Positions 10,503 through 60,306 of a DNA stretch of 64,000 bases are shown here, piece by piece. Within the stretch, counting starts at the first letter, position 1. Each line of letters opens with the position of its first letter. The stretch comes from Octopus vulgaris (lineage: Eukaryota), in contig OX597822.1 of the NCBI GenBank assembly GCA_951406725.2, forward strand, positions 89,714,001 to 89,778,000, given 5' to 3'. The notes beneath the pieces were generated by a model that saw nothing but the letters and a program-made list of their open reading frames with translations, was not told the DNA's origin and made no database searches. A program made the translations under genes and the position numbers.

Positions 10503-11241
10503 ATGGAAGATCCGATTCTGAAAAATTTTTTTTCAAAAATCACATTTTCAAAATTTCAATTCCCTCACTACCACTTCATTTTTCACTTTTTCATCATTGT
10601 TCGTGCGTTTGTACTGGTTTTAAGGGTTAGGGTTTTAGGGTTAGGGTGTTAGAGTTGGGGTAAGGGTGACAAACGAAATATACACCGCCGGAAGTTCTTG
10701 TTGACAAACAACAGCAGTAATTTTATTCAGCTGAATACACATCATTGATTGGTTGAAATTACCGAAATACGAGAACTTTCACGTGAAATATACAGTGACA
10801 AACGAAATATACACCGCCGGAAGTTCTTGTTGACAAACAACAGCAGTAATTTTATTCAGCTGAATACACATCATTGATTGGTTGAAATTACCGAAATACG
10901 AGAACTTTCACGTGAAATAACTTCATAAATATAAGATTTTCTCAAAAATGCTAATAGTAAAAGATGTTTTATATGATACATTCTACTTGTGTCTGAAGTT
11001 TGAAAGTGTTTAGTTACAAAAAATTATTTTTTAAATCTGTAGGTCAAAAGGTAAAGATACAAAATTTGTTTGGAAAATTTAAATTTTTCAACAATAAAAT
11101 AAAATATATATATATGCCCTCAGGCCTTCAAGCGGCCTATCCACATGCTAGAAATAACAGCCAAATCTCACAAAACTGCGATAACATAACGAAATTTCGA
11201 AAAATCGATTTTTGAAAAATTTTTTCGGAATCGGATCCTCC
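10503..11241. mobile_element. TIR-bounded non-autonomous element with TTAGGG-like tract and internal 129-bp tandem duplication
   Basis: ggaagatccgattctgaaaaattttttttcaaaaatc at the left is inverted to gatttttgaaaaattttttcggaatcggatcctcc at the right; 10666-10790 is repeated at 10795-10919. Confidence 0.6.
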
Positions 11242-18798: not shown

Positions 18799-18875
18799 TA
18801 TAAATAGACGGAAGTTATGGTTAATACAATTAGCCAATCAAAAACAAGTACCGAAATTTAAAATTCGAGTCGAAG
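18799..18875 (+). promoter_or_regulatory. Candidate shugoshin core promoter (ETS, CCAAT, CHR-like motifs)
   Basis: ACGGAAGT 18808-18815, AGCCAATCA 18832-18840 and TTTAAA 18857-18862 lie just upstream of ATG 18876 in a locally CpG-richer zone. Confidence 0.5.
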
Positions 18876-18926
18876 ATGGATGCTGATAAAGACGTGCTTA
18901 GGAAAGAGTCACTTACATCGAAAAAG
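18876..18926 (+). CDS. SGO1: Shugoshin candidate exon 1 (MDADKDVLRKESLTSKK)
   Basis: ATG in aagATGg context, open to AAG|gtgaga donor; phase 0 matches exon 2. Could instead be a 5'UTR exon or unrelated, since exon 2 starts with its own ATG. Confidence 0.55.
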
Positions 18927-23023: not shown

Positions 23024-23059
<36 letters not shown>

Positions 23060-27150: not shown

Positions 27151-27271
27151 ATGGAAGAATCCTCAAAATTAAAAGGACTCAGTAAAGTGAAACTAAAAGT
27201 TGTGAAGAAAAAAGTCCATATACGACAGCATAAAAATTTAAATCGTTCTAACAGCAGTTTTAACTGCAGCT
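27151..27271 (+). CDS. SGO1: Shugoshin exon 2 (basic N-terminus)
   Basis: ttttctttgtttag|ATGGAAGAA...AGCT|gtaagt; MEESSKLKGLSKVKLKVVKKK...SFNCS; phase 1 joins exon 3 as TTA. Confidence 0.85.
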
Positions 27272-28589: not shown

Positions 28590-28798
28590 TAAATGCTTCA
28601 ACAAAAATGAAACAAACATTGAGATCTAACAACAAAGCTCTAGCTCACGCATTACAGGTTGCAAGACAAGATTTAGCATTGGCCACTAACATCATCACTT
28701 CTCTTAGATTGGATAATAGAAATATGATGCTTGAAGCTGCCAACAATAAGTATATGGCTTCACATTGTCTTGAAGAGCAAGTTGGTGCTCGGTTGAAG
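28590..28798 (+). CDS. SGO1: Shugoshin exon 3 (N-terminal coiled coil, PP2A-B56-binding region)
   Basis: tattttcag|...NASTKMKQTLRSNNKALAHALQVARQDL...LRLDNRNM...RLK|gtaagc; resembles the NN(K/R)xL(A/V)xAL core of shugoshin coiled coils. Confidence 0.92.
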
Positions 28799-31881: not shown

Positions 31882-32204
31882 TGGGTAACTTTCTGATACC
31901 CATAATAATATTTATGGCAAAATAGGCCTTAATTTCATTTAAGGTTGTGGGAAACAACAACCTATCCTTTCTTTCGCTTTGTTTACATTTAGCGTAACGG
32001 TTCATTTCCGCCGTAATTTTCTGATACCCACAATAATATTTATGGGTAACTTTCTGATACCCATAATAATATTTATGGCAAAATAGGCCTTAATTTCATT
32101 TAAGGTTGTGGGAAACAACAAACTATCCTTTCTTTCGCTTTGTTTACATTTAGCTTAACGGTTCATTTCCGCCGTAATTTTCTGATACCCACAATAATAT
32201 TTAT
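31882..32204. repeat. 161-bp tandem direct duplication
   Basis: 31882-32042 is nearly identical to 32043-32203; lies downstream of another TTAA|CCCTT terminus at 31536. Confidence 0.9.
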
Positions 32205-32674
32205 TGGTTTTGGCAGAGACTGAGAGAAATGTTTTGAAGTGCTACGAACAACTACTGTTTCAAATGAACAACGCACACACACAAACATATTCATTCCTGA
32301 TATGACACCCACACATGTGCTCTGTATTTCTAGCAACTCGTAGCAGTTGCCTACATTTTGTATGTAGTGTACCTATAATGAATCAAACCCTTTAAATAAA
32401 TTCTTTTCAATTATGGATCGATTTACATATTTGTTTACATACACCTTCCATTTGCATCTATGTTCATTGATACACACTTAACCACTACAGCCCTTTCTAC
32501 TTTTCAAAGAGAAATGGAAGTTTTCCTTTTCCCTTTAAGCTATGCAGAAGTTTCCTTCTGCTGTGCTTCTGATCATTCTGTCTTTATTTTAAAACTATAA
32601 TTCATAATTGTGTATTGTAGTATTTAAAATGTATATATTAAATTAACAAATTATATTTTTCATGTTTCTTACAG

Positions 32675-32850
32675 CCTATTCTGATGCTGATTAAGCAAAA
32701 GGTTTCAGATATTGGTGAACATCTTACCATTGTTACTTCAGCAGTACATGATATTTCTGAAAGTATTGTATCATATTTATCTACATCAGCTGTTAACTCA
32801 AGATCAAACTCAATAGAAATTGGCCAAAATATAGTAAAATCTCTTACAGA
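32675..32850 (+). CDS. SGO1: Shugoshin exon 4
   Basis: tttcttacag|CCTATTCTG...ACAGA|gtaagt; PILMLIKQKVSDIGEHL...KSLT; phases 0 and 2 fit both neighbours. Confidence 0.85.
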
Positions 32851-32907: not shown

Positions 32908-33615
32908 GAGTTCCTTTTGAGCATTGGGCCTCCCGGACGAGTTCCTTTTGAGCATTGGGCCTCCCGGACGAGTTCCTTTTGAGCATTGGGCCTCCCGGAC
33001 GAGTTCCTTTCGAGCATTGGCCTCCCGGACGAGTTCCTTTTGAGCATTGGGCCTCCCGGACGAGTTCCTTTCGAGCATTGGGCCTCCCGGACGAGTTCCT
33101 TTCGAGCATTGGGCCTCCCGGACGAGTTCCTTTCGAGCATTGGGCCTCCCGGACGGGTTCCTTTCGAGCATTGGGCCTCCCGGACGGGTTCCTTTCGAGC
33201 ATTGGGCCTCCCGGACGGGTTCCTTTCGAGCATTGGGCCTCCCGGACGGGTTCCTTTCGAGCATTGGGCCTCCCGGACGGGTTCCTTTCGAGCATTGGGC
33301 CTCCCGGACGGGTTCCTTTCGAGCATTGGGCCTCCCGGACGGGTTCCTTTCGAGCATTGGGCCTCCCGGACGGGTTCCTTTCGAGCACTGGGCCTCCCGG
33401 ACGGGTTCCTTTCGAGCATTGGGCCTCCCGGACGGGTTCCTTTCGAGCATTGGGCCTCCCGGACGGGTTCCTTTCGAGCATTGGGCCTCCCGGACGGGTT
33501 CCTTTCGAGCATTGGGCCTCCCGGACGGGTTCCTTTCGAGCATTGGGCCTCCCGGACGGGTTCCTTTCGAGCATTGGGCCTCCCGGACGGGTTCCTTTCG
33601 AGCATTGGGCCTCCC
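32908..33615. repeat. GC-rich 31-bp minisatellite, ~23 units
   Basis: Unit g(a/g)gttccttt(t/c)gagcattgggcctcccggac repeated head-to-tail with no spacers. Confidence 0.97.
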
Positions 33616-35362: not shown

Positions 35363-35538
35363 GTGTCATATATGATGCATGGCCACCCAGAAAATATGTC
35401 CTGTATGTCATATGTAATACACAGGACAGGCCAAAGCTAAATGCAATACCTTGTTTCATGTTTCTTACTTTATGTCCTGTATATACTTTAGTGAACTTGT
35501 TCATTATTTAATGTTACAATCTTTTCTTTTGTATTTAG

Positions 35539-35696
35539 AACCCCTAATGAAAAGGTTTTGCTCAATAAAGATGCCATAGGTGATGTTGCTTTAAAGAAAA
35601 ATGTTAATTCCCAGATTTGTAATGAGCTCAGCTTCATTGCTGAGACTTTTATTAATACGGATTATACTTCAAATACACTTGATGTGTTGTCTAAAG
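35539..35696 (+). CDS. SGO1: Shugoshin exon 5
   Basis: ttttgtatttag|AACCCCT...TCTAAAG|gtaaat; TPNEKVLLNKDAIGDV...DVLSK; phases 2 and 1 fit. Confidence 0.8.
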
Positions 35697-36471
35697 GTAA
35701 ATATTACATGTTTAAATATTACAAATATTTATGATAAATTTACCAAAAATATTGTATTACAAATGTTTTGGAGAAGTACAAAAATGTAACCAATTTCATG
35801 TAAAAAATATTTACATCAGCACATTTTACACCCAGCTTTCTATGCTAGCATAGGATATATGTGACTCAGAGCATGTCACTGCTTATTGTGGTTGTGTGTA
35901 ATTTGGTTTTGAGGAATTCTTGTTGCAATGTTAATGCAGTTACACAAAAAGATATTGCCAAAGACTGAAGTACCATTATCATTATCTGCTACTGGGAGAT
36001 TAAAGGGGTTAGAACTATTAAGAGTCAAAACAAAGGTATAAGGTGAAATTTGTTGTACAAGGATATGGAACTATATTTACTTCTAATGTAAATGTAAGTT
36101 TGATTTTCTCCATTTGTAGTGTAGAGTAGTATTGTTTACAATTGCACCATAAAAACAGCATTTGTACAAGAGAGAGTGACAGCCAGGTTAAACTAAAAAT
36201 CATGTTAATGTATCTTGTTTTTATCTTTTAAAATGTGATTGAAAAATCGGTATATGTTTCTCATGAACTGAAGGAAATATGTTTGGCAACAAGACTTATA
36301 AAGAATTTTCTTCTTTATTTGTTGATTTCAATGTCAGCTGTAATGCTTCTCTTTCTTCCATTCTGTGTACAACAATAGTGGCTCTAGATAGTGAAAATGA
36401 ATAGAACATTTTGAAAATCTGCCATGAACACCATATGTGACTAGTGTCTGTAAAAGAAAAATGATAGACAT

Positions 36472-36870
36472 AGGCGCAGGAGTGGCTGTGTGGTAAGTAG
36501 CTTGTTTACCAACCACATGGTTCCGGGTTCAGTCCCACTGCGTGGCACCTTGGGCAAGTGTCTTCTACTATAGCCTCAGGCCGACCAAAGCCTTGTGAAT
36601 GGATTTGGTAGACGGAAACTGAAAGAAGCTCGTCGTATATATATATATATATATATATATGATTGTGTGTGTCTGTGTTTGTCCCCCTAGCATTGCTTGA
36701 CAACCGATGCTGGTGTGTTTATGTCCCCGTTACTTAGTGGTTCGGCAAAAAGAGACCGATAGAATAAGTACTGGGCTTACAAAAGAATAAGTCCCGGGGT
36801 CGAGTTGCTTGACTAAAGGTAGTGCTCCAGCATGGCCAGTCAAATGACTGAAACAAGTAAAAGAGTAAAA
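36472..36870 (+). mobile_element. Full-length tRNA/CORE-like SINE with LINE-like 3' tail
   Basis: A-box tggctgtgtgg, B-box ggttcagtccc, ccttgggcaagtgtctt core, internal (TA)n, tail gtgctccagcatggcc...actgaaacaagtaaaagag. Confidence 0.85.
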
Positions 36871-37538
36871 AGAGAGAGAGAGGTGTTGGTACTCTGCAGT
36901 GTGAGAAGTGCTGATGTTTCTGCTGAACATGATAAAACATTCACTAACTGATTACTTTATGCCAAAAAAGACAGGCTATTGCAAAGTCTATCTTTTCTCT
37001 TAGTCTTGGAGAACAGACTCCTCTTGCATAAGGCTGCACTTGTTGACTGCAGCATGGGAATTTTATGATGTCAATAGAGAAATCTTGGCACAGATTTTGC
37101 AAAGCTGTTTTTCCACAAGGGTTATATGTAAAGCTTTGCCAGATAACTATTTCTGAATTAAGTTCTTGATGAAGTAATAGCTACAACTATGGAGACAAGC
37201 ACTATCAATGTTCCATACAATGGAGTTAGCTCCAGTTGTGGCTGAAGTGACATCAGAGGAAGCAGCCACAACTCTCTCTCAGTTTGTCCTGAGATCAGGA
37301 ATGGTACTGGTAACACCAGAGGTAGCTGGTGTTACTAGTCATCAAAGTCAACAAATATATATCGGAGAGGCACTGAGCAGCTATAAGCACACATACACAC
37401 ACGGCAGTAGCTCCTGCCTACCGAATTCAATCACAAAGCTTCGGTTGGCTCGGGGCTATAGTGGAAGACACCTGCCCAAAGTGCCACGCAGTGGGACTGA
37501 ACCCGAAACCATGTAGCTAGGAAGCAAGCTCCCTAACC

Positions 37539-37569
<31 letters not shown>

Positions 37570-37599
37570 TATATACATATATATATGTGTGTGTGTGTG

Positions 37600-38000
37600 A
37601 TGGAAGGCCAAAACTGGAAGGCAGATTTACCCTACTTTCTTTACTAATGCATGATAACTCCCCACAGTGCAACCAGTGTCCCTCTTCGAGGCCCTTAATA
37701 GGAGGAAGATGAATGTCAGTCTACTTGGTGTCATGCATTATAAAACTTCTTTGTTTAATACATTCCTGCATAACCTTGAATAATGCTCTGAACAGTGATA
37801 AAATATAAACATATGCAGACCAGATCTGATGCACCCAAATTCTTCACTTCTCATGGACAACAGTGTGCTCATACAGCAATGAAGAGACTGTCTCTACCTT
37901 TCAAGGCAAGCCCATTTATAGTTGTCTAGAAAAGTAGGAATTTGGTAACAATAGAACATGGTTCCTATAAAATCTCATGCAATTTTTCATTCCTCAAGCA
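37600..38000 (+). mobile_element. Heavily decayed LTR-retrotransposon integrase C-terminal fragment
   Basis: NWKADLPYFL...TPHSATSV...KYKTYAD pattern only; weak. Confidence 0.35.
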
Positions 38001-39402
38001 TCTGAAGAAAAAGGCATATGAACTAACTGATGAACTGCTGTCAGTGATGCCACCTGAACCAATCAGGATGGACATAACTCCAAGGATATCATTTCAACCA
38101 AAATTTCCACTACAGCCTAAATTGAGTCAGAAAATGTAAACAAAACAAGGACAAACTGATGAAATTATAAATTACTAACAGTTTATTGTATATGGTGAAA
38201 ATTAAGTAATTTTCACTGTATGTGCCTGTAATTTGAATAAAAAAAAATTGAGGTAAAATGTTATATAAAATCTATTACAGAATTTCGGAGGTTTTTTTCT
38301 GACACCACTTTAATACATTAGAAGTATAATGAAAGGCAAAATAGCACAGCTGTTAGTGTTGAATAAAATGCCTTGTGGTATTTGTCCCAACTCTGTGCTC
38401 AAATTTCATGAGGTCCTGTCTAACCATGCTAGCATGGACAGTGGATGTTAAAAGATGATGATGTTAATTTTGCCTTTCAATTTTTCAAGGATAACAAAGA
38501 AAAATTAATTCAAAGTGGTGGATTGGTAAAACTGCTAGGTCAAAGAAGATGCCTTACAATATCGTTTTCTGGTTCTGTACACTGTAGAAACACCTGTGGT
38601 GTCAAGCTGCATCAGCCAACTCAGCAGCATTTCCCTTAGGCAACCTTGGTGGTATTGGAGAGGGAAGAGTTACATGGATGAATAAAAAAAAAAATTTTTT
38701 TTAAAAACCCTCACCCCTGCTTGCAGATGAATGATCAGCTTTGACTGCAGAGGCCCCCATTATTATAATAAAAGAAATACTTATGTATTTGGTTCCCCTT
38801 TATAATTAGATTATCAATTAACCAATCTCATTTCCTGGCATCACAACGTTTCATTTATGAACATTCGATATAGCTGAGGAACAGCAGAAGCTAATCTACT
38901 AGCAATATTTTTTTTAGAGAACTTTGTAACATCAAAGATGATCTCTATATTCAGTTATGGAATGTTATCTATCTTTTGATGATGGTAGCGAATATTTTTT
39001 CCAAGTAAAATAATCCCAATGATTATGAGATCAAAATGCAGTTACACAGATTTTTCTTATAAACTTTCTTATGTACTTTATGTTCCATTTTAAAAGTAAT
39101 GTTCTTTTTCAGACTTTTTTTATTGTTTTATACTGATTGAGATATCATGAATGTTTTTCATGAAACATTTTTCAAGTCTATTTTCTTGATGTTTCCATTT
39201 TGCTTGACATTATCAAAAAACAAATCAATGGTACAGAGATAAATTAATAATTATGATAAAATTGTAATTAAAGTTGATACACATTATTAAGACCCTGGGG
39301 AAAACAGAATTCTGTTCTATGTAATATTTGCTTATTGTTATTTATCATTATTTCATGATAAAGAGAAAAACTAATTCTTTTCTTTTCCTGTTCATTTTTT
39401 AG

Positions 39403-40101
39403 TTGATGAATTGGAATCTGAAAAATTGTGTAAAAATGCTGACGAAAATCATTTAAACGTCCCCATTGAAAAACCTAAAATTGCTACTAAAAGTCGCCCT
39501 GATGTAGAAAGACGTTCCAGTATTCAATTTAGACGGGAATCTCTGGATGAAATCGATTTTGGTTCAAATCTCCCAACTACCCGAAATAGGCGCCGTTCTT
39601 CATTACACTTGTCTGCTACAGGTCTTGACAAAAAGCGTCACCAACAATTGGATATTTTAGAACCGTCAGTTATTAAAGATTCTTGTGCAGAAGTTAATTT
39701 GGAAAATGCAGCTGACAGGGATAAAGTAGTTAAAAATAACTCTAACCATATTCCTTGTACTGATGCATCAATGCCAAATGGTAAAGCTGCAGAAACAGCC
39801 TTAATAGTTAATGATGCTGATAATGGTTTAAATAATGCCATACCCAACGTTACAATAACTGGTGAAGTTGACATGGAATTGACTGAAATAATAAACAACA
39901 CTGACGTAATGCATGAGTCATCACAAAATCTACCAACTGGTAATGATGTTCATCCATCTGATATAAATCTGGAGAAACAAAAGGATACGACTGTTGCTAA
40001 AGAAACTTTTGTTAAACCAACAGTAGCACCTAATAAAGTAAAAGCAAAAGGCAACAAAAAATCGTCAAAGAGCTCAAAGGATAAAAAGGAAGATGAAAGA
40101 G
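39403..40101 (+). CDS. SGO1: Shugoshin exon 6, copy A (699 bp, phase 1-1)
   Basis: ttcattttttag|TTGATGAATTG...GAAAGAG|gtgtgt; open frame DELESEKLCK...KEDER. Confidence 0.8.
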
Positions 40102-40374
40102 GTGTGTATTTCTTTTTTTCTAATTTGTTTCACTGCCTTTCTATAATGAAATGAAAGGATGCAAAATATAAAAATGCTGCTTAGGTGAAAACATTCACTG
40201 ACATGGTAATTCGTAATTTCTGCTACAAAACAAAATGTAGTGCTCTGTGAGAATAAATTGCTTTAATTCTATTGGTGGGGAATTAAGACTTATTACAACA
40301 TTTGATGGAAGGTCTTGCAGCATTTATTCAAAGACTTTAGTGTCTGAGTTCAAATTTCTCCAATGTCAAATTTA

Positions 40375-40530
40375 CTAAAAAAGAGGTTTTACTCTATAAA
40401 AATATCATGGGTGATGTTGTTTTGAAGAAAAATGTATATCTCCAGATTTTTAATGATCTAAGCTTGATTGCTGTGTTTTTTTTTATCAAGCTGGATTTTT
40501 ATTTCAAATACACTTGATTAACTCTAAAAA
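40375..40530 (+). pseudogene. Decayed duplicate of shugoshin exon 5
   Basis: gaggttttactctataaaaatatcatgggtgatgttgttttgaagaaaaatgt...ttcaaatacacttgat aligns to 35550-35695; acceptor and donor lost; similarity continues into the intron (41130-41570 vs 35800-36055). Confidence 0.8.
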
Positions 40531-40645
40531 TATCCCATGTTTAAATACTCCAGATATTCATAGTAAATTTGCCAAAAGTATTGTATAAACAAATGTTTTA
40601 TGCTTTTGAAAACTTTGCAGAAGAGTCACTATCGTCATTATTTAA

Positions 40646-40866
40646 CCCTTTCGTTACTGTATTTATTTTAAGATGCTCTGTGTTTCTTTCAATTACTTTA
40701 AATATAACAAAGAATTTAGTAAAATAACTTAGTTATCATTAAGCTAGTGTTAGGAGCATAAATTGTGACTAGGGTTTGGTGGAAAATTTTAATTCAAAAC
40801 TTATGAAAACAAGACATTTGTACTACAGAGCCATAGATGGTTTCAGCCAGGTTGGTAATGAAAGGG
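40646..40866. mobile_element. piggyBac-type MITE nested in an RTE-UTR repeat
   Basis: TTAA|ccctttcgttac...gtaatgaaaggg|TTAA; splits the tail (atcgtcattatttaa/tgtctgttttccatgc) of a minus-strand (GAT)n element. Confidence 0.85.
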
Positions 40867-42873
40867 TTAATGTCTGTTTTCCATGCTGGCATGGGTTGGA
40901 CAGTTTGACCAGAGTTGGCAGACAGGAGAGCTGCACCAGTTTCCACTTTGATGTGGTTTGAGTTCTACAGTTGGATGCCCTTCCTAATGCCTACCATTTT
41001 ACAGAGATGGCTGGGATCCTTCCTTATGGGGCATTGGCATGGGTGCTTTTATGTGGTGCCAGCATGGGCACTACTATATGGTGCTGACATGGGTGCTTTT
41101 TACATGCCACCAGCACAGGGCTCTTGGTGAGAAAAATATTTACATAAGCAGATCGTTTTACATCTAGCTTTCTATGCTAGCATGGGTTGGATGTATCTCA
41201 GCATGTTACCACTTGTTGTGGTACTTCATCATTTGCTGTACCCAGCAACAGAGAAAATGGCCAATTTTGTTGCTTTTATAAATTACACAGTAATTTATAA
41301 ATTATTTTGCTATATGGAGAGCATGAATGAAATACGACAAGTTATGCTTGAAATATCAGGCAGTGAATAGGATACAAAAGACAGAAAGCTGCAGGGTTTT
41401 GAGTAATTGTTGTTGAGTTAATGAAATTAGACAAAGTATTATTATAAAGACTGGAGTACCAGTATCATCATCTGTTGCTCTGTGGATAAAGGGATTGTAC
41501 TGAAAAGAGTATGTCAGTCAAATTATAAGAACTATTAAGAGTCAAAATGAAGTGTAAGATGAAATTTGTAGCTGTTCAATTGAGAAAAAAATATGGTTTA
41601 TCTAACATTCTTCTCTGGCCAATGTTATCAGGCTTCATCAGTAGAAGAATATTGTCTATTTTTGCTAGCCAGCTGTGTAGCAACAAGCTTGCTGTGCAGA
41701 ATGTTTATTAGAAAAATTGAAGTGATGCTGTAAAATGAGATTAACTGATAATTAAATTTTAAAAAAGCCACTCACTGCTTATTTAGTTACAAATTTCTTT
41801 TCAGTGTTTTCAAATACTGATCTTATTTGCTCAAAGAATAATGTTAATAAACCCACCCCATTACCTCTTTTTATCTCCTACTATTTCCACCTTTCTGTAC
41901 CCTGGCACTTTGCATCACTTTTGCACCCCACTCCATTTCATGTCCTCTTTGCTGCCATCTATTACCTTCCTGATCAACACTTACTTCCTCCAACATTCCT
42001 TCCACCTAATATTCACAATTGACCATGCCTCCATCATGTTCATCACTCACTGCAGTTACCCTCTATCCCCGTCATTATCCATCTGCCACTCACTTCTTAC
42101 ATTCCTACCAACTTACTTACCTGCCCATATCTCTTTTATTCACCTTCCTGTAATCTGAGGTTATGCCCTGAAGCATCTTCATTACCATTCTCTTTCTTGA
42201 CCAACAAGGGTAACTATGTAGCTCCCCCATAGAAAGACACCTGTTTCTGATTCCTATCTTAATTTAACTTCTCATCACCTAATATAAAGCTACTTCCTCA
42301 GTCCTACTATCCAACACAGTTGAGGGGTCTTAATTACTTAGTGACTTCACTAGTGCCAGCGTCATGTAAAAAGCATCCAGTACACTATAGGGGTTGGCAT
42401 TAGAGAGGGTACCCAGCCATAAAAGTAGTAAAAATGATACATTTGTCAGACGATAGGCTTCTTTCAGTTTCCATTCTACCATATCCTCTCACAAAGCTTT
42501 GGTTGGTCTGGGGTTATAGTAGAAGGCACTTGTCCAAGGTGTCAAACATTGGGATTGAACCCAAGACCACATGGTTGGGAAGCAAGTTTCTTAACCATAT
42601 AACCCTGCCTGTTCCTGTACTATGCCTACACACCTAAATTTAGCCCAGTAGACCATGTTATTGATTTAATCTTACATATAATAAAGCACAATGTGTGTTT
42701 CATTGGCCATGCTAGGGAAACAACTGTAAATGGAGTGGCAGTGAATGACAGAGACACTAAAAGGCGGGCAAACAGCATTCAATGGTTTTGCTCTGAAGAA
42801 GCTGATATTTTAATCAAAATAAAACTGCAGAGTTTTATTGTAAATTGTATTTAGTTTATCAGTTTAGTTTATC

Positions 42874-42909
<36 letters not shown>

Positions 42910-43029
42910 GTGCACACACACACACATACACACACACAAAATAGTTGTATATGAAATTGAATATTAAACACTTTTGTTTTCAAAATATTATCATTCACTT
43001 GAAGCACAATCTTCAAACTTTGTGCTTCA

Positions 43030-43625
43030 CCGAGGTGATGACAAGTGACTAAGACCTTTGGAGATATGCTGTGCTTGAGAAGACTCGGCAAGCCTAGTGA
43101 GGCCGTGGCCTATGCCAGTGCAGTATGACCAGCCCATCAAAGAGTACCCTTCAATCATTGGGGAATAAACTGCACTTGCAAAGACCTGTTGAGGCAAGTG
43201 AAGTCGTCATTCTGTTCGATGACAGTACCACCTGATTGGCACCTGTGCTGGTGGCATGTAAAAAGCACCATTCGAGTGTGGTTGATGCTGGTGTCGCCTG
43301 ACTGGTCCCGTGCCAGTGGCACGTAAAAAGCACCATTCGAGTGTGGCTGTTGCCAGTGCCACCTGATTGGCTTCCTTTCCGGTGGCACATAAGAAGCACC
43401 ATTCAAGCATGGCTGATGTCAGTACTGCCTGACAGGCCCTTGTGCCAGTGACATGTGAAAAGGACCCACTGCACTCTCAGAGTGGTTGGCATTAGAAAGG
43501 GCATCCAGCTGTAGAAACATTGCCAGATCGGATTGGAGCCTGGTGCGACCTCTTGGCTTGCCAGCCGTCACTCAAACTGTCCAACCCATGCCAGCATGGA
43601 AAGTGGTCTTTAAACGATGATGATA
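43030..43625 (+). mobile_element. RTE 3'UTR repeat with multiple ~57-nt internal subrepeats
   Basis: Repeated gtggcac(g/a)taaaaagcaccattc units, then the family tail ending aaacgatgatgat. Confidence 0.75.
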
Positions 43626-43849
43626 TCATATATATCTATATCAGTATATATATATATATATAAATGTTATGTGAATGATCATATGTAGATATATATTTGT
43701 ATATATACTTACATTTTTTTATATACTTACATTTCTTTTTCTTTTGTTTTGGTTCATTTTTCCATGCTTGCCCTTTGTGATACAAGCCCTTATTTCCTTT
43801 TTTAATTATAGGATAATTTATTTTACTGACTTCAATCTAAAACATGCAT

Positions 43850-43992
43850 GTGTGCACACATTCACACATGCATATATATATTTGTATATATATGCAGATA
43901 CATAGGTGTATATAAATATGTATGCATATGTATGATTATATGTATATATATATATATATACATACACACACATATGTACATATATATGCATG

Positions 43993-44030
<38 letters not shown>

Positions 44031-44300
44031 CACACACATATGTACATATATATGCATGTATATATATATATATACATACACATATGTACATATATATGCA
44101 CACACATGTACATATATATGCATGTATATATATATATATATACATACACACACACACATATGTACATATATATGCATGTATATATATATACATACACACA
44201 CATATGTACATATATATGCATGTATATATATATATATACATACATACACACACACACACATATGTACATATATATATATATATATATACACATACACACA
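43850..44300. repeat. Complex purine-pyrimidine microsatellite with higher-order unit
   Basis: Recurrent cacacatatgtacatatatatgcatgtata(ta)n units. Confidence 0.95.
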
Positions 44301-44301
44301 C

Positions 44302-44449
44302 AGAGTCCCCTCCTATTTATCATAGTCCTCCAGGCAATAACGGAGGAATTCAAGACAGGATGCCCCTAGGAGCTCCTCTATGCTGATGACCTTGCTCTAA
44401 TTGCTGAGTCACTATCAGAACTGGAGAAGTTTCAGGTGTGGAAACAAGG
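44302..44449 (+). mobile_element. RTE RT fragment truncated by an LTR
   Basis: [35 protein letters not shown]. Confidence 0.8.
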
Positions 44450-44854
44450 TGTAACGAAGGATCTGTTATCGATTCACTGAAAGGGTGTCGATATCCGATC
44501 TAGTCACATATAATCTCATAAGACAATACAGACGAAGTCAGGTTGAAGGTAAAAAGACAGCAGTTCGTTTATTTATTGTGATGTCGTACGTGTCTGATGG
44601 GAGAAATACAGCCTCTGATATACAGCTACGTGTTAGTTTGTTGATGGTCGTTGGCGGCTATCAGTGAGGTTGTCAGAGCCGTTGAATGTACGTCGTATCG
44701 CGGCAAGCTGTGGAGCCGGAGAGAAAGATTTGAGCTTGGCGGGCTTGAGGGAACGTTTCCCGCACATGCGCATGGGGGAAGACTTCCGGTGGCCACCCGG
44801 AAGTAGTCCCATTCTGCGCATGCGCGCTGAACCCTACACAGTAGCATCACTACA
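44450..44854 (-). mobile_element. Gypsy 3' LTR (minus strand)
   Basis: On minus: PPT-like gaggggag then TGTAGTGAT...CGTTACA; AATAAA inside; GCGCATGCGC and CCGGAAG motifs. Confidence 0.85.
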
Positions 44855-46700
44855 AGGCTCCCCTCTGAGTGCGAAGTATGACAACAAGAAAATTTGTGGT
44901 GGTGCTGCAGAAAACAGAAGGCTTGCCGATCCCCCAGAAGACTTGGTACATAATATCATACAACAAGAAAAATTTTTGAAAGAAAGTTAAATGTAGATTG
45001 TCTTTGAAAGTTTCTTGGGCCAATGCACTGTTCTGCCCGATTTTGTAACATACGGTGTGCTCGGGGCACCCGTTGACGGCGAGGGTGGTGTTGTAGGAGC
45101 CGGTGAAGGCAAAGGCGTCTGTGCAGGTGAAGGCGTTTGTGCAGGTGAATGTGCAGTCAAATCAATATGATGGCCTAGAAAATCTAGGGAAGAGCGTCCG
45201 AAAACACACTTGTCGGGATTTATGCGTATGCTATAAGCGCGAAGACGCTGAAAAAGCTGAGAAAGGTGCTGGAGATGATTTTTACGTGTGTCGCTCGCAA
45301 TGAGTATATCATCGACATAGGCAAACACAAAATCAAGACCGTGGACAACCTCATCAATGAAACGCTGGAAAGTGCTAGTAGCATTCCGCAAACCGAAACT
45401 CATGTACAAAAACTCAAAACACCCAAAGGGGGTAGTGATCGCAGTTTTCGGAACGTCGGCTGGGTTGACCGGTATTTGATGGTACGCGCGTATAAGGTCG
45501 ACCTTCGAAAAAATGGTACAACCATGGAGATTTGCCGTAAAGTCCCGGAGATTTCTAATCGGGTATCTGTCGGCTATAGTTACGGCATTGAGGCGTCGAT
45601 AGTCTCCAACCGGGTGAAAATCAGACTCGCCCTTTCGGGCCAAATGAAGGGGAGATGCCCATGGGCTGGTGGAGGGGCGTATAAGGCCAAGTTGAAGCAT
45701 GTGCTCAAACTCGGCCCTGGCCGTTTCTAGTCGGTCTGGCGCAAGGCGCCGTGGTCGTGAAAATACAGGTAGCCCATTGGTGGTGATGAAATGGAGGGTC
45801 GAGTGGGTAGGCTTTTCCGGTTTAAAGGCAATGTCCACTAGCTCCGGAAATTAAACCAAAAGAGAGTGAAAAGGGTCTCCAGAGGTGGCAACAAAGAATG
45901 TCGGGCTAAGGACCGCAGTGGTGGAACTCCCAGTTGGTGTAGAGAGTGACGTCGTGCTATCAAGAAGCCTCCGACGCCTGACATCCACCAATTGATTAAA
46001 CCTATCCAGGAAATCAGCGCCGAGAATAGGATGCGGGATGTCAGCTATGACGAAAACCCATTGAAAGTCTCGACGAAGGTTGAGGTCGAGGCGCAGCGAA
46101 ATCTGACCGTAAGTGGTTATGGGAGACGAGTCAATAGCATGCAAGACAATCGAAGAGCGCTTGGGCTTGTCTGCAGCCAGACGAAGGGGCCAGATGCTGC
46201 AACAGGAGCCGGTGTCCACCATGAAGAATTTCTTCGACACCAGATCTTTTACAAAGAATGCACGATGTTTGGGAAACGAGATGGAAGAAGGTGACGTGCT
46301 CACCTCCTCCGGATTTAGTTTTCCGAGGGCTTGAAAGTGCACGGCTGGGTACACCAATCTGCCTTTTCGGCATACTTCGAATGGTACCAGCACCAGCTGG
46401 AACAAGAAACAGAGTCACTCCGACTACGGGAAATAGAGCTACTGCGACTACGACTGCGAGATAGGCGCCCGATCGCACGGCATAGATCATCGATTCTCCG
46501 CGTAAGCGCATCGATGTTCTCGGCTAGTTTATCATTCGTCGGAGGGGGCTCTGTACATGCGTACAGGCCCCGCGAGGGAGATGGGCGCGAAAACTCCAAC
46601 ACCTTGTCGGCCATCGTGGCGATCTGGTCCACAGACACAGAATCCAGTGCTGTGAACAAAAAAATCCAGTTTTTTCTGCCAAGTCTGAACACGATCAACT
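44855..46700 (-). mobile_element. Ty3/Gypsy gag-protease-RT, internally deleted
   Basis: gag end CWYHSKYAEKADWCTQPC; protease FMVDTG...ILGADFL; RT SPWASPL...DYRRLN...FAYVDDILI...FLGH, fused directly to the integrase tail TKSGRTVHWP (RNase H and integrase core missing). Confidence 0.92.
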
Positions 46701-47324
46701 GTGCACAGTCATCATCCTTCGACGATTTGTTTCCGGTCCCCTCAAACAGTTATAAAAGGAGCCTCTCTTATTTACAGCAATAATGACGACACTAACATAC
46801 ACCACGGATGCCTTCATATCATCGATGCCTTTTCTCTGCCGTCGTCATCACCATCGTCGTCTTTCGACTTCACGTCGTCGTTATCTTCGTCGCCAGCAAC
46901 ACTAAGCAACAATGTGTCTCAAGTCCGTCACTGTCGCCTTCAACACCGTTGACCTCAACAATATGTAAATAGCAACTCGCGGAAGTTTAGCTTTCACGCT
47001 GTTAGTGTATACACACCAGGATTAACAGCACAGTCTACCTGCGAGATCTTCTGTACCAATTTAACCTGTCACAGCATTGAAGCCACAACCGCTACACGAC
47101 ATGTGTTCAACCGGCATCTGCATTTGTGATCTCAGCATTCTATTACAGAACGAACTGCTATTATGTATCAGGCTATTACGGACTGGTAAATTAACTCCAT
47201 CTTGTCTGAAATACCCTGAGAGACTTTTTTTTTCCTATGCGCTGTATTTTTATTTTGCTCGCATTGGATTTTTTTGTTGTTAAGTGATCTCTGGTTCAAG
47301 ACCAGAATCACGTCAGGGTCACCT

Positions 47325-47820
47325 TGTTTGTACTTCTGTCGCACACACGTACACACATAGTTAATACACACACAAATGCTATCTCTCTCACATTCATACG
47401 TCACACATGCCTTTCTCGCTTGTTTTTCCATGCTCAATTTGCCTTTGTAGACACAACTCATCTCTGTAAGACCCTAGGTCGGTCACGTATACATAGAGAA
47501 AGTTGTTTGTCCATTATAACGCGCCAGCATGTCACACTTTTGTTCCTGCACGACCGAGGCATATAATCGCTCAAGCACTGGCTGGCAGCCTCAGCCTTAC
47601 TACATTAACCACTGGCATATTCATTGCTGTGTTTCAGTCTAGCAAGCCCTATTACATTCATGCACCTCTGTTCTGCACGTGTACTGCCTTGTTTTGCAAC
47701 ACGTCTGCGTCAGCTCAATTCTTTTCCCGACTCAAAGAACGTCGGATGTTCACATGCGCTGCGCCCATGTTTAGGCGTAATTTTTTCCCTGTTAGACCCC
47801 TGTTGGTCACGTAATTAACA
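47325..47820 (-). mobile_element. Probable 5' LTR of a different LTR family, with PBS
   Basis: On minus TGTT...AACA termini followed by aggtgaccctgacgtg (PBS-like, 47309-47324); not similar to the other two LTRs. Confidence 0.55.
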
Positions 47821-48430
47821 GAGAAAATTATCTGTCTCGCGCATCACACCAGCATGCTTGCACTGTCACCTTGCTAACCTTACACTTTCAGCTGAAGCAC
47901 TGTCTGCCTTTTGTGTTACTAGCGATCTATCTGTCAATTCCATTTCCTCTCCTGCAGCAATTGACTTAACTGCTATTTCGCAGGATCAACCACCTTTAGA
48001 GGAGTTGGATTTAACTTCGCCTAGGTTTATTAACTGTAAGTTTGCCTAGCTTCTGCTCCTTTCAGCGGAAGGCTCTATACTTTGTGACGTATCCACCGGT
48101 TCTCCTAGACCGTTAGTACCTGAGAAACATCAACGTTCTGTGTTTGATGCTCTTCATTCACTGTCACATCCAGGTATCTCTGCCACAGTTCTTTTGGCCC
48201 AATATGCGACGATCGATTACCTCTTGGGCATGCTCTTGTTTGAAGTGCCAGAGTGCTAAGGTCCATGGACACGTTCGTGCTCCACTTGGACAGTTTTCTT
48301 CTCCTGAAGCCCGTTTTCGCCATGTCCACCTTGATTTGGTTGGACCATGGCCTGTGAGTAATGGGTTCTCATATATATTTAACTTTATCGATCATTTCTC
48401 ATGTTGGCCGGAAGCTATTCTTATTCACAC
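47821..48430 (+). mobile_element. Gypsy integrase N-terminal fragment
   Basis: LCDVSTGSPRPLVP...HSLSHPG...FFWPNM...CLKCQ (HHCC), HVHLDLVGP...IDHFSCWPEAI. Confidence 0.9.
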
Positions 48431-48619
48431 ATGCACCTTTGATTTTGCTCATTTTGAGTATTTTTTCTCTTTTTTCCTTTTGGTAAATTTTCTTGTGTAT
48501 ATTGTAAATTCTGCCATTTTGTTATATTGTGTGCTATTTTGGTTATCTGGTATCCACCTTGAGTTTTTATTAGTCACTACAAGGAATATTGTTCGTGCTT
48601 AGGCACTGGGGGGGAGCTT

Positions 48620-49143
48620 TGTAGTGATCCTATACAACGGTGCGCGCGTGCGCACCGCCCTTTTCTGTTTCGCGCGTGCAGAGTTGGTGCTTTCACCAAG
48701 GCAGAGGGGAAGAGCCCTCTCGCGCATGCGCAAAGACCGGAAGAGGGAATTTGCTGACGTGGCGTTTGGCTTGTTAGGCGAAGGGAGCGTGAACCTTAAA
48801 AGGGTCCAGAGAGATATAGCAGCAGTAGGCAGTGACTTGAGACACGGCGACTGAAGGTTGCAGACGTAGTCTTTTCGCTCTCTCCGGACGCCATTTTGAC
48901 TAGTTCTGTTTTTTAGCGGCTGAACATTGTAAAATCTTACAAGCGATAAAGTTCAGCTCTGACACATCCATACCAAGGGATACCAGATACACCACTTATT
49001 TCGTTCTGTGGATAAGAGAATAAAGTATATATATTTTTTACGTTTGCGTCTTCTGACTGGTAGAATCTGGATATTAAAAGCAACGGAAAGTGATTGCACC
49101 ACTTGCACCCAAAAAGTGCAATAAGCTATTCGTTCCCGTTACA
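48620..49143 (+). mobile_element. Gypsy 3' LTR (sense to shugoshin)
   Basis: PPT gggggggag 48608-48616, TGTAGTGAT...CGTTACA termini, AATAAA 49019-49024. Confidence 0.88.
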
Positions 49144-49675
49144 TATATATATATATATATATATAATATGTGTGTGTGTCTGTGTCCTCATAACTTAGAT
49201 GTTCAGCAGAAGAGACTGATGGAATAAGCACCAGGCTTACAGGGAATAGTAAGTCCAGGGGTCGATTTCTTCAACTAAAGAGTAGTGCTCCAGCATGGCC
49301 ACCATCAAATGACAAACAAGTAAAGGAACAAAAGAATATCACAAGAACGTTCCATACCACTAAACCACAAAGGTTCTTTGAATATGTACAATGTATTTTA
49401 AGGTTAAACAGTAATTCTGTTTATGTTTGCATAACTGAAATATTTTGGTTGGATTATATAGTTATCGGTTTTACACTTCTTTCTATATTCTGTAACCGTC
49501 ACAATATAGAAACATTTCTCATGGCACCAGCACACAATTTACACATGCTTACATTTTTTATGTTTTCCATGAATTTTTCATGGGTCCAGCTAGTAATAAA
49601 TTATTATTTTTCATAATTTTGTTTTCTATGATAAAGGTAAAACCTAATTCTTTTCTTTTCCTATTCATTTTTTAG

Positions 49676-50374
49676 TTGAATTGGAATCTGAAAAATTGTG
49701 TAAAAATGCTGACGAAAATCATTTAAACGTCCCCATTGAAAAACCTAAAATTGCTACTAAAAGTCGCCCTGATGTAGAAAGACGTTCCAGTATTCAATTT
49801 AGACGGGAATCTCTGGATGAAATCGATTTTGGTTCAAATCTCCCAACTACCCGAAAAAGGCGCTGTTCTTCATTACACTTGTCTGCTACAGGTCTTGACA
49901 AAAAGCGTCACCAACAATTGGATATTTTAGAACCGTCAGTTATTAAAGATTCTTGTGCAGAAGAAGTTAATTTGGAAAATGCAGCTGACAGGGATAAAGT
50001 AGTTAAAAATAACTCTAACCATATTCCTTGTACTGATGCATCAATGCCAAATGGTAAAGCTGCAGAAACAGCCTTAGTAGTTAATGATGCTGATAATGGT
50101 TTAAATAATGCCATACCCAACGTTACAATAACTGGTGAAGTTGACATGGAATTGACTGAAATAATAAACAACACTGACGTAATGCATGAGTCATCACAAA
50201 ATCTACCAACTGGTAATGATGTTCATCCATCTGATATAAATCTGGAGAAACAAAAGGATACGACTGTTGCTAAAGAAACTTTTGTTAAACCAACAGTAGC
50301 ACCTAATAAAGTAAAAGCAAAAGGCAACAAAAAATCGTCAAAGAGCTCAAAGGATAAAAAGGAAGATGAAAGAG
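49676..50374 (+). CDS. SGO1: Shugoshin exon 6, copy B (699 bp, phase 1-1)
   Basis: ttcattttttag|TTGAATTG...GAAAGAG|gtgtgt; open frame, about 99% identical to copy A. Confidence 0.85.
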
Positions 50375-50709
50375 GTGTGTATTTCTTTTTTTCTAATTTG
50401 TTTCACTGCCTTTCTATAATGAAATGAAAGGATGCAAAATATAAAAATGCTGCTTAGGTGAAAACATTCACTGACATGGTAATTCGTAATTTCTGCTACA
50501 AAACAAAATGCAGGTCTACAGTCACAAATTTACAGAATCTATTTGATGTAATTAAATATTATGCTTCAAAGTAATGAAATTGAAAACTGAGTACTTCAAG
50601 GTAACTTAGTTTGTTTGTATTTTCTCCTATTGTTTCTCTATTAAAATAAGAAACAAACTGGTCCATTTTCAATTTGAATTAAGAAACTTTCTTTTTTTTT
50701 TCTTTTTAG

Positions 50710-52175
50710 ATAAATGCAAAGAAACTGATGATAATGAAAATAAAACTGTTATTGAGTTAAGGTTACCAAAACCTGGGAAGATTGTTTTTTCCGCGACAAG
50801 GAAAAAATTTTCTGGTCTTCGACCATCTGCACCCAATGTCAGATCAAAAAAGAAAATTAACGAAGAGAAAAAAGACAGGGAAGAACCAAAATCTTTGTTT
50901 GATTTCCATGACAAAACTCCTCAATTGTTAAATAAGAAAGACGTAAAAGATGAAGGCATTTATAATGTTTCTTTGAATGATTCTACATTTGGTAAATGCC
51001 AAAGTCTTGGTCAATATCGTGAGCGAGTTGCCATGGCAAAAGAGAAGAAAAAAGAAGAGATTACTGATGTCAAAGATAATTCAGACAAAATTATTAATGA
51101 TAACCAAACTGTATCCAGAATTTCTAATGAGTGCAATGAAGAAAAGATAAAACTTTCACAGTCTAAGAAATCATTAACTAAAGATCAGCCTGTTGCTAGA
51201 AAAAAGTCACGTTCAAGGAAAAAAATAGATGATGATGATGATGAAGACTATGAAAGCAAACATATATCTACATGTGAAACTAATGTTCCTGTGAGAACTC
51301 TTACCCGCAGAACACGGTCAAAAGTTGTTAGTTATGCAGAAGTTGATGAAAGTTTTGATACAAGTGTTATAAAACCACAAGCTACACCAGAAATTAATAA
51401 AAATTGTCAAAAGACTACTACGAGATTAGAATTGGTTGGTTCTGATAAGACTGATGGAGGCATGAAACAATCTGAAAATTCTAAAATAACCAATAAAAAT
51501 AGTTTAAAGCAAGATTCCGAGATGGTGATTTCAAGTCCTTCTCAAAGTCCCAAGGGGAAAACTTCTGAACTTTCTAACTCCAACAGCAAATCAACAATGA
51601 ATGAATTGCACAAAGACAGAGCACAAAAGCATTCTAAACCAAATGAAAATTTAGAAAAAGGAACTGTATCCTCATTAAAACAATCAAGTAACGTCAGTGA
51701 CATTCTTGAGCGCTATAGAAAAGCTTTACAAGATGATGACGTTTCCACTAATGTACCCTTAAGGATGAGAGGCAGATCAAGCAGTCATATACGGAGAGAA
51801 TCTTTGACCAACTCAACTGCAGAAAATGCTAGAATTGGTTCATCCAAACATAGATCACGATCAGCTTCTTCTGTTAAAGCAGGTAGTACCAATTCAGGAA
51901 CAGACTGCTGTAATTCAGATGAAAAAATGCTTTCTGAATTATCATCAACTAAAATCACAAAAGAGAAAAGACAATCCAGATTAAGTAAAGGAAAACTTAG
52001 CAAATTAGAACAGGAAATTAGTACAAAAAATGTCAGATCCCGATCTAGAAAATCACATAGAAATGTTCCAGAGAAGACGGACAAAGAAAATTTCAGCGAA
52101 AAGACACCTGATTTGATTAATGCTGATGACATTTTAAAAATGAAAAAAGATGTTCACTCTAAAGTGAAAGGAAAG
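50710..52175 (+). CDS. SGO1: Shugoshin exon 7 (large K/S/D/E-rich disordered region)
   Basis: ttctttttag|ATAAATGC...GGAAAG|gtaaat; 1466 bp open; phases 1 and 0 fit. Confidence 0.9.
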
Positions 52176-52381
52176 GTAAATCATCTCTAAAATTTTTTTT
52201 CAGATGCTTTTCATAATTACTTTTTACTAATGGATTATAAGATTGAAATAAGAGGGATTCACTTATTTTTTTTTTTTTTTAATCATGAGTAAATATTACT
52301 GAAAAAGCTTCAGATTTTTGGTCACTTGAAGAGTTATAATGATATACTGTTTGCTGTTCATAATCAAATTTTCTTTTCCAG

Positions 52382-52518
52382 GCAACATTAATTTGTGAAA
52401 TCAAGGAAAATATTGATGTGGAACTCACTGATTTGCCAGCAGAAGCCACTTCAAGAAATACAAGTCCTTTAAATTTTTCCAAAAATACGCCAAAACGTCT
52501 ATCTGAAGATAATTATGG
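52382..52518 (+). CDS. SGO1: Shugoshin exon 8
   Basis: ttcttttccag|GCAACATTA...TATGG|gtaaat; ATLICEIKENIDV...TPKRLSEDNY; phases 0 and 2 fit. Confidence 0.85.
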
Positions 52519-55546: not shown

Positions 55547-55621
55547 GGACACCTTTAGTGTTAAACGTCCTCGAAGAAATGCCATTAAATCAATATCATA
55601 CAGAGAGCCTGCATTAAACTT
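55547..55621 (+). CDS. SGO1: Shugoshin exon 9 (first part of SGO motif)
   Basis: tttttcag|GGACACC...AACTT|gtaagt; DTFSVKRPRRNAIKSISYREPALN matches the RxRR....(V/I)SYxEPxL shugoshin C-terminal motif. Confidence 0.93.
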
Positions 55622-60233: not shown

Positions 60234-60306
60234 GAAACTCCGGCAAGGTGATGAACTATTTGTGGCTAAAGCTCTTGAAAATGGCAATTTTGGTAAGGAA
60301 GATTAA
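60234..60306 (+). CDS. SGO1: Shugoshin exon 10 (second part of SGO motif)
   Basis: ttcatatttag|GAAACTCCGGCAAGGTGAT gives (L)KLRQGDELF, completing EPALNLKLRQGD. The exon either ends at a gtaagg donor after 60292 or reads through to TAA at 60304-60306. Confidence 0.88.

What the first reader, a model, noticed from the sequence alone, without database searches (positions are those of the whole stretch)
39370..50510. Shugoshin has two near-identical, frame-preserving copies of a 233-codon exon
Exon 6A (39403-40101) and 6B (49676-50374) are both exactly 699 bp, phase 1-1, with intact acceptor and donor. By eye they differ only by compensating 3-nt indels (extra GAT at the start of A, extra GAA in B) and three amino-acid changes (N/K, R/C, I/V); I saw no synonymous differences. 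Splicing could include one copy, both or neither in frame (about 1054 aa with one copy vs 1287 aa with both, if exon 1 is coding and exon 10 reads through). That would change the spacer between the PP2A-binding coiled coil and the centromere-targeting SGO motif. Two changes fall in one basic phospho-motif (RNRRRSS vs RKRRCSS). The functional reading is inference.
Basis: partly seen in the sequence, partly recalled or inferred. Interest (0 to 1): 0.75.

Follow-up and report, generated by a model that had tools for sequence, protein, structure and literature searches.

The report
Old octopus shugoshin exon kept identical
The common octopus gene for shugoshin, a protein that guards chromosome segregation, carries two 99.6%-identical copies of one large exon that are joined in its RNA, while the decayed duplicate DNA beside them differs by about 19%, so the duplication is likely old and the copies likely kept alike by gene conversion; an argonaut's predicted protein shows a similar doubling.

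Summary
In detail: two 699-bp phase-1 exons with 3 substitutions and two 3-nt indels. It is not an assembly artefact. O. sinensis proteins and a DNA run of another organism have both copies. The copies are not simply a young duplicate. Behind 6A lie a dead copy of exon 5 and collinear pieces of intron 5, 19% diverged (87/451) and unique in the genome. The exon-6 block has no differences at about 286 neutral sites. Best reading: an old ~4.7-kb tandem duplication of exon 5 to exon 6, with exon 6 homogenised by gene conversion. An ~11%-diverged organism shows an exon6-exon6 joint, and Argonauta's protein repeats the same exon start (114/117 identical). Spliced contigs show 5-6A, 6-6B and 6-7, with no 5-6B seen, so both copies are usually included; regulated skipping is unproven. 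The exon is disordered but holds two mollusc-conserved motifs (RRSSL aligned with RRGTF; DMELT). The R/C change removes a conserved arginine in copy B. I found no earlier scan note or paper on this locus. It is a clean new case of a known process.

The parts
18876..18926 (+). shugoshin exon 1 (coding part, ATG at 18876)
   Evidence: matches CAI9728244.1 residues 1-17
27151..27271 (+). exon 2
28590..28798 (+). exon 3, N-terminal coiled coil (NNKAL stretch)
   Evidence: profile's best PDB match is Sgo1 coiled coil 3fga_D, E=0.18; AF2 helix 53-165
32675..32850 (+). exon 4
35539..35696 (+). exon 5, phase 2-1 (asymmetric); start of the old duplicated unit
39403..40101 (+). exon 6A, 699 bp, phase 1-1; holds RRSSL and DMELT motifs
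   Evidence: spliced from exon 5 in runs X8, X10, X11, X19
39351..40237 (+). homogenised tract, copy A (acceptor flank 4/52 mismatches, exon 3/696, donor flank 0/136)
40375..40599 (+). dead copy of exon 5 and the start of intron 5 (77%; no acceptor; frameshift and stops)
41132..41569 (+). three collinear remnants of the duplicated intron 5 (41132-41222, 41395-41498, 41528-41569)
44450..49140 (.). broken LTR-retroelement pieces between the copies: reverse transcriptase on minus, integrase piece on plus
   Evidence: RVT_1 107.7 bits; Integrase_H2C2 28.1 bits; closest other copies 93%
49330..49629 (.). interspersed repeat abutting the 5' edge of tract B
   Evidence: 38 other places listed, 88-92%
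49623..50510 (+). homogenised tract, copy B
49676..50374 (+). exon 6B, 699 bp, phase 1-1; Arg-to-Cys change in the RRSSL motif
   Evidence: exon6-to-6B junction in X8, X11 and X19
50710..52175 (+). exon 7 (LRLP and FDFHDKTP motifs, single copy)
   Evidence: 6-7 and 7-8 joints
52382..52518 (+). exon 8
55547..55621 (+). exon 9, SGO motif
   Evidence: PF07557 17.2 bits, under the 23.3 cut-off
60234..60292 (+). exon 10 (the last exon lies beyond the window)

Best explanation
The octopus shugoshin gene carries two near-identical copies of exon 6 inside a decayed tandem repeat of exon 5, intron 5 and exon 6, and the copies are likely old and kept alike by gene conversion, with both likely included in most transcripts. 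Steps: (1) inferred: a ~4.7-kb head-to-tail duplication (about 35544-40237) made 5-6A-5'-6B. (2) Shown: copy 5' lacks an acceptor and is broken; exon 5 is phase 2-1, so it could not follow 6A in frame, whereas exon 6 is phase 1-1 and can. (3) Shown: 5' and the intron remnants differ by 19% and transposons have filled the second unit, yet an 890-bp tract around exon 6 is 98.4% identical, neutral sites included. (4) Inferred: non-allelic gene conversion homogenises that tract. (5) Shown in contigs: 5-6A, 6-6B and 6-7 joints. (6) Inferred: the 1302-aa protein has a doubled disordered segment, with two DMELT motifs and two basic phospho-motif clusters, one of them a likely kinesin-13 docking site that copy B has weakened.
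For: Old duplicate: four collinear plus-strand matches behind 6A. They occur nowhere else in the genome (3 matches in all). They score 113, 51 and 51 against shuffle maxima of 21, 17 and 18. Contrast: 87/451 mismatches vs 0 at about 286 neutral sites (150 synonymous plus 136 intronic), Fisher p=1e-20. Mobile elements between or abutting the copies are 7-12% from their closest listed relatives. Organism D, about 11% diverged in these exons, has an exon6-to-exon6-start joint (depth 8.48) beside a 6-7 joint (9.02) in run X24. Argonauta GAB1601099.1 repeats the same exon start, 114/117 identical, with older tails (14/29). The tree groups copies by genus. Sepia and other molluscs have no such repeat (3 of 14 proteins carry it). 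Splicing. 4 of 5 O. sinensis RefSeq isoforms hold both copies. Motifs: R302 is nearly invariant and D395, M396 and T399 are invariant in 10 mollusc proteins. Exon 6 has pLDDT under 50.
Against: No single conversion event was caught: two synonymous letters in organism C contigs could sit in one copy or both. 5 of 8 segments tested for old homology gave nothing above shuffles, so the unit's limits are inferred. Run X22 (organism D, same study as X24) lists no 6-6 joint, and its exon-6 3' part runs unbranched into exon 7. An exon6-exon6 joint could also be a circular RNA. The 61-bp junction contigs in X8 and X11 have 30 letters a side, one short of the tool's 31-letter rule. The runs' RNA status is a guess of the tool. 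The dead exon 5 is closer to Octopus exon 5 (19/32) than Argonauta's exon 5 is (11/32), which fits a duplication younger than the Argonauta split. The Argonauta repeat rests on one predicted protein. Copy B's Arg-to-Cys change is in contigs of three studies, which argues against strong selection for two intact sites. The octopus motif (S-L-H-L) fits the published pT-X-hydrophobic-hydrophobic pattern only in part.
Confidence: 0.77

Rival explanations
1. The old duplicate lost its exon 6, and a recent event (a few million years ago) copied only the 890-bp exon-6 block back in. Organism D and Argonauta duplicated independently, or show circular RNA or a model error.
For: Both indels are shared by O. 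vulgaris and O. sinensis and all point changes are species-private, which fits one recent copy event. The 3' edge of the tract is sharp. X22 lists no 6-6 joint.
Against: The copy sits where the old unit predicts it, after 5' and its intron and before exon 7. No target-site duplication longer than 7 bp was found. The acceptor flank shows a gradient (4/52). Three separate events on one exon would be needed. A one-off re-copy into the old site is itself a conversion-like event.
Confidence: 0.12
2. Regulated alternative splicing includes one copy, both or neither, tuning linker length and motif number between tissues. This can hold on top of the best explanation.
For: Both exons are phase 1-1 with equally strong pyrimidine tracts. 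RefSeq O. sinensis X5 skips 6B (1 of 5 isoforms). Contigs drop rare variants, so minor isoforms would be invisible.
Against: Exon-5 contigs enter 6A in 4 of 4 runs of organisms A and C laid as RNA-like, and no 5-6B or 5-7 joint was listed (tables were cut). The 6-6B depth is at least the 5-6A depth in X8 (87.1 vs 70.8), X11 (4.6 vs 4.2) and X19 (329 vs 161), a weak hint only. 6A-7 and 6B-7 reads are identical over 297 nt, so X5 is an expected mapping by-product.
Confidence: 0.2
3. False duplication of two haplotypes in the assembly.
For: Very high identity of the two copies.
Against: Only 890 bp are alike and the flanks are unrelated. The O. sinensis assembly has both copies with the same indels. 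DNA run X6 has flank contigs at depth 39-50, the repeat at 93 and a second acceptor contig at 51. Spliced exon6-6B joints exist.
Confidence: 0.01
4. An old duplicate kept identical by purifying selection alone.
For: The exon holds conserved motifs.
Against: Synonymous sites and 136 intron bases are identical too. The exon is among the least conserved parts between species (about 40% to Argonauta).
Confidence: 0.02

Closest known systems
Salamander Nav1.4 exons 26a/26b (10.1101/2021.03.25.437018; abstract, section 6 and passages read)
   Same: An old intragenic exon duplication, both copies expressed, substitutions homogenised by non-allelic gene conversion.
   Different: There the exons are alternative terminal exons with numerous non-synonymous differences. 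Here both internal copies are joined in one transcript, the whole exon is near-identical, and a dead neighbour exon marks the age.
KNL1 MELT-repeat arrays (PMC4558858; abstract and one passage read)
   Same: A chromosome-segregation scaffold whose disordered region gains docking motifs by recurrent, lineage-specific multiplication; the doubled exon here also holds a DMELT string.
   Different: KNL1 arrays are many short repeats. Here it is one whole-exon doubling across a 9.6-kb intron. Bub1-Bub3 binding of the octopus DMELT is untested.
Vertebrate SGO2 central region, kinesin-13 docking (10.1101/2024.04.13.589357, passages; PMC4301718, passages)
   Same: An Arg-x-phosphosite-hydrophobic motif in the disordered middle of a shugoshin; molluscan RRGTF motifs fit it and align with octopus RRSSL.
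   Different: The octopus motif has Ser for Thr and His at +2; copy B lacks the -2 Arg; binding was not tested.
Nebulin and titin intragenic segmental duplications (search listing and abstract starts only)
   Same: Highly identical in-frame exon blocks within one gene.
   Different: Those are multi-exon segmental duplications with copy-number variation. That their introns are near-identical too is recalled. Here the introns have decayed and only an 890-bp tract is alike.
Dscam-type mutually exclusive duplicated exons (PMC3236188, passages)
   Same: Tandem duplicated exons in one gene.
   Different: Dscam exons are either-or, divergent and show no gene conversion; this pair is the opposite on all three points.

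Membership tests
Shugoshin | C-terminal SGO motif (Pfam PF07557) | tested here: inconclusive
   Only Shugoshin-family hit, 17.2 bits, E=0.0045, under the 23.3 cut-off; the homologues from Batillaria (31.7) and Mytilus (25.1) pass it
Shugoshin | N-terminal coiled coil like that of Sgo1 | tested here: met
   AF2 helix 53-165, pLDDT 80-97 over residues 61-160; best of 4 PDB matches at E up to 10 is Sgo1 3fga_D, E=0.18, weak on its own; Pfam listed no Shugoshin N-terminal family
Shugoshin | Orthology to mollusc proteins that pass the SGO cut-off | tested here: met
   phmmer E 5e-17 and 3e-16 to those two proteins; shared invariant KPG, FDFH and DM-T columns; one locus in the genome for the start of exon 7
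Shugoshin | Centromere localisation, PP2A binding, cohesin protection | not testable with these tools
   Needs cell biology
Concerted evolution by non-allelic gene conversion | Copies closer within than between lineages | tested here: met
   Tree groups Ah_A with Ah_B (97/93) apart from the four Octopus copies (81/90); organism D is about 11% from the window while A vs B is 0.4%
Concerted evolution by non-allelic gene conversion | Homogenised tract inside an older, diverged duplicate | tested here: met
   87/451 vs 3/696 and 0/136
Concerted evolution by non-allelic gene conversion | Neutral sites homogenised too | tested here: met
   0 differences at about 286 synonymous and intronic sites
Concerted evolution by non-allelic gene conversion | Derived variants shared by both copies after a species split | tested here: inconclusive
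   39596C and 39983A (synonymous) in organism C contigs X6 and X19, but a merged contig cannot show whether one or both copies carry them
Mutually exclusive duplicated exons (Dscam type) | Copies used either-or, never joined | tested here: not met
   Exon6-to-6B junctions in X8, X11 and X19
Haplotype false duplication | Flanks duplicated too; absent from other individuals and assemblies | tested here: not met
Kinesin-13 docking motif of SGO2 | pT-X-hydrophobic-hydrophobic with an Arg two residues before | tested here: inconclusive
   Copy A R-S-S-L-H-L keeps the Arg but has Ser and His; copy B lacks the Arg; the genome has a kinesin-13 N-terminal domain

The most novel reading that the evidence does not exclude
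The exon-6 doubling arose once, before octopuses and argonauts split (between about 46 and 101 My ago). It has been homogenised separately in each lineage ever since, and it is retained because it doubles the Aurora-B-regulated kinesin-13 and MELT-like docking sites on the animal's only shugoshin. Copy B mutations and skipping would then act as a dial on microtubule-destabiliser recruitment in meiosis, a centromere-drive effector in mice.
Probability: 0.15. Interest if true: 0.78.

Novelty: new member of a known kind. Interest (0 to 1): 0.52.

Why it matters
It shows that near-identity of two exons need not mean recent duplication or bad assembly. Here a dead neighbour exon gives an internal clock (19% vs 0.4%), which makes an unusually clean natural case for measuring intragenic gene conversion across about 10 kb. 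The doubled segment is the motif-bearing middle of the only shugoshin found in this genome, and a second octopod lineage shows the same doubling. So either a very old homogenised duplicate or repeated evolution on one exon is on the table, and both are testable with existing genomes. It also warns that short-read isoform models at such loci (O. sinensis X5) are unreliable.

Tried and rejected
Run search: no holder on record as RNA; RNA status of X8-X18, X22 and X24 is the tool's guess. I laid 7 different runs of the 24 listed (X8 twice). Depth sums were used only as a weak hint. tables were flooded by repeats and cut, so no 6-6B row for X10 was seen. Self-BLASTP for internal repeats failed its positive control and was replaced by 5-mer diagonals. 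First exon coordinates were wrong and were fixed. Old homology was not found upstream of exon 5, in four further intron-5 pieces, for 40238-40374 against intron 6 or intron 4, or for the far upstream flanks. No transposon-style target-site duplication around either block. Positive selection from 3:0 changes was rejected (P=0.48). No named O. bimaculoides shugoshin turned up, so that species is untested. Rfam: 0 matches. Literature: 'shugoshin'+'octopus' gave 1 listing, off topic by its abstract start; 'shugoshin'+'exon duplication' gave 1, off topic; 'shugoshin, mollusc, cephalopod' (2 of 3 terms) listed 15 of 3,420 papers, none of the 15 holding 'shugoshin'; a five-term search gave 0; PMC5134366 has no passage on repeats, duplication or molluscs. 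Subscription journals and bioRxiv supplements were not searchable and could mention the locus.
Full report
Observation. A self-comparison of the window finds one long near-identical pair outside tandem arrays: 39351-40237 and 49623-50510, 98.4% over 891 columns. Inside lie two 699-bp exons with AG and GT borders that differ by two 3-nt indels and three substitutions (N/K, R/C, I/V), none synonymous. The block occurs twice in the genome of 2.80 Gb. Eleven exons in the window translate to the first 1283 residues of the named O. vulgaris protein CAI9728244.1. Its last exon lies about 3 kb beyond the window, giving 1302 aa with both copies. That record's contig has the same length as the window's contig, so it is not independent support.

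Gene identity. The protein has a confident N-terminal helix (53-165). The best of 4 PDB matches of a 10-protein profile is the Sgo1 coiled coil (3fga_D, E=0.18). A C-terminal SGO motif scores under Pfam's cut-off here but over it in Batillaria and Mytilus homologues. These two features define shugoshins in PMC4301718 (passages), which also lists LRLP among HP1- or Mad2-binding motifs; LRLP is present in exon 7. The start of exon 7 matches one locus among 10 candidates scored.

Not an artefact. O. sinensis RefSeq isoforms X1-X4 hold both copies with the same two indels, and X5 holds only A. In DNA run X6 (organism C) the listed flank contigs have depth 39-50 and the exon contig 93, and a second contig carries the 6B-type acceptor at depth 51.

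Splicing. In X8, X10 and X19 the exon-5 contig runs 36 letters past its aligned end, the length expected for 6A and not 6B. In X8 and X11 the loose end reads exon 5 plus the 6A start. The end of exon 6 joins the 6B acceptor in X19 and in 61-bp contigs of X8 and X11 (30 letters a side, one short of the tool's bridging rule). 6-7 and 7-8 joints are GT..AG in X8 and X11. B-specific letters are in the X10 and X11 contigs. No 5-6B or 5-7 joint was listed, but contigs drop rare forms and one search's tables were cut. The 6-6B depth equals or exceeds 5-6A in 3 of 3 runs with both values, a weak hint of near-constitutive inclusion. Skipping of 6B cannot be judged from short reads, since the last 297 nt are identical. 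The runs' RNA status is the tool's guess, though they splice at GT..AG and lack depth in most non-repeat intron bins.

The duplication is old. Directly behind 6A lie a copy of exon 5 and the start of intron 5 (40375-40599, 77%) and three more intron-5 pieces in order. A genome search with 35500-36100 returns only itself and two of these pieces. Three test segments scored 113, 51 and 51 against shuffle maxima of 21, 17 and 18; five other segments gave nothing. The exon-5 copy has no acceptor and is broken. Exon 5 is phase 2-1 and exon 6 phase 1-1, so only exon 6 could be used twice in frame. The offset is 4831 bp at exon 5 and 10273 bp at exon 6, which fits a unit of about 4.7 kb later swollen by mobile elements. 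These include broken LTR-element pieces whose closest listed relatives are 93% alike (40 of 496 candidates scored) and a repeat abutting tract B at 88-92%.

The contrast. The old pieces differ at 87 of 451 columns, a floor since only alignable pieces count. The exon differs at 3 of 696, the donor flank at 0 of 136 and the acceptor flank at 4 of 52. Zero differences at about 286 neutral sites against about 51-55 expected gives p=1e-20. Selection on protein cannot hold synonymous and intronic bases identical, and this exon is poorly conserved between species. Gene conversion over an 890-bp tract is the simplest cause; this step is inference.

Other lineages. Organism D differs from the window by about 11% in these exons. 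Run X24 shows an exon6-to-exon6-start joint (8.48) beside a 6-7 joint (9.02). Run X22 of the same study shows two variants of part of the exon but lists no such joint. A circular RNA would give the same joint. The Argonauta hians protein GAB1601099.1 repeats the same exon start, 114 of 117 residues identical; its first copy is shorter, lacks the DMELT-like motif and ends in a tail 14/29 identical to the second copy's. A tree groups copies by genus (7 rows, bootstrap not settled). Sepia and the other molluscs lack the repeat (3 of 14 proteins have it). PMC7104719 (passages) dates Argonauta-Tremoctopus at 46 Ma and Cirrata-Incirrata at 101 Ma; that the Octopus-Argonauta split lies between is my inference. 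O. vulgaris and O. sinensis split 2.5 Ma ago (10.1101/2023.05.16.540928, passages). The dead exon 5 is closer to Octopus exon 5 (19/32) than Argonauta's is (11/32). So either homogenisation of the whole unit went on after the split, or the two lineages duplicated independently. I rate these about even.

What is doubled. Exon 6 is predicted disordered (pLDDT under 50, shallow alignment) but holds two conserved motifs. RRSSL aligns with RRGTF or RRETF of other molluscs, which carry several such motifs. D, M and T of DMELT are invariant in 10 proteins. Kinesin-13 N-terminal domains bind SGO2 peptides of the form pT-X-hydrophobic-hydrophobic with an Arg two residues before the site (10.1101/2024.04.13.589357, passages). 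The genome has such a domain. The octopus motif fits only in part, and R303C in copy B removes that Arg; the Cys letter is in contigs of three studies. SGO2 and MCAK are centromere-drive effectors in mice, and SGO2 evolves rapidly (10.1101/2020.11.26.400515, passages). A link to the octopus doubling is speculation, and the damaged B motif points as readily to redundancy.

Comparison and verdict. Closest precedents are salamander Nav1.4 exons 26a/b and KNL1 repeat turnover (abstract); Dscam is the contrast. Paper searches and scan notes showed nothing on this locus. This is a real, clean new case of intragenic concerted evolution in a chromosome-segregation gene; regulated isoform switching is not shown. 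Interest 0.52.

Noticed in passing
window 44450-49140: Two broken LTR-retroelement pieces in opposite orientation in the 6A-6B intron: reverse transcriptase on minus, integrase piece on plus; both ends begin TGTAAC read inward.
   Followed up: partly
window 32910-33615: A 31-bp GC-rich minisatellite, 22.8 copies at 98%, starts 60 bp after the exon 4 donor.
   Followed up: no
runs X22 and X24 laid on window 51300-52450: Organism D runs hold two different exon 7/8-like sequences, one about 89% alike and one more diverged: a second shugoshin gene or a mixed sample.
   Followed up: no
window 18834-18862: CCAAT box followed by TTTAAA just before the ATG, resembling the CCAAT/CHR layout of G2/M genes (motif recalled, one search shows the bases).
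   Followed up: no
L004 1507-1602 (G000:C10): One kinesin-13 (KIF2A-like) N-terminal domain match in the genome; it keeps the K-x-K pair (TKGKE) that resembles the phosphate-binding lysines of human KIF2C.
   Followed up: partly
P0013, P0016, P0008 (other molluscs): Bivalve and gastropod shugoshins carry 3-4 RRGTF/KRETF-type motifs in the same middle region, so motif number varies across molluscs.
   Followed up: partly
window 10666-10919 and 31882-32208: Young local tandem duplications (125 bp at 100%; 161 bp at 98%).
   Followed up: no
window 2626-4026, 14725-16690, 23040-25372, 62168-63865: Further retroelement-like open frames (LTR-type and LINE-type by eye); not scanned.
   Followed up: no
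O. sinensis isoforms P0001-P0005: RefSeq also models two alternative last exons and two variants inside exon 7.
   Followed up: no
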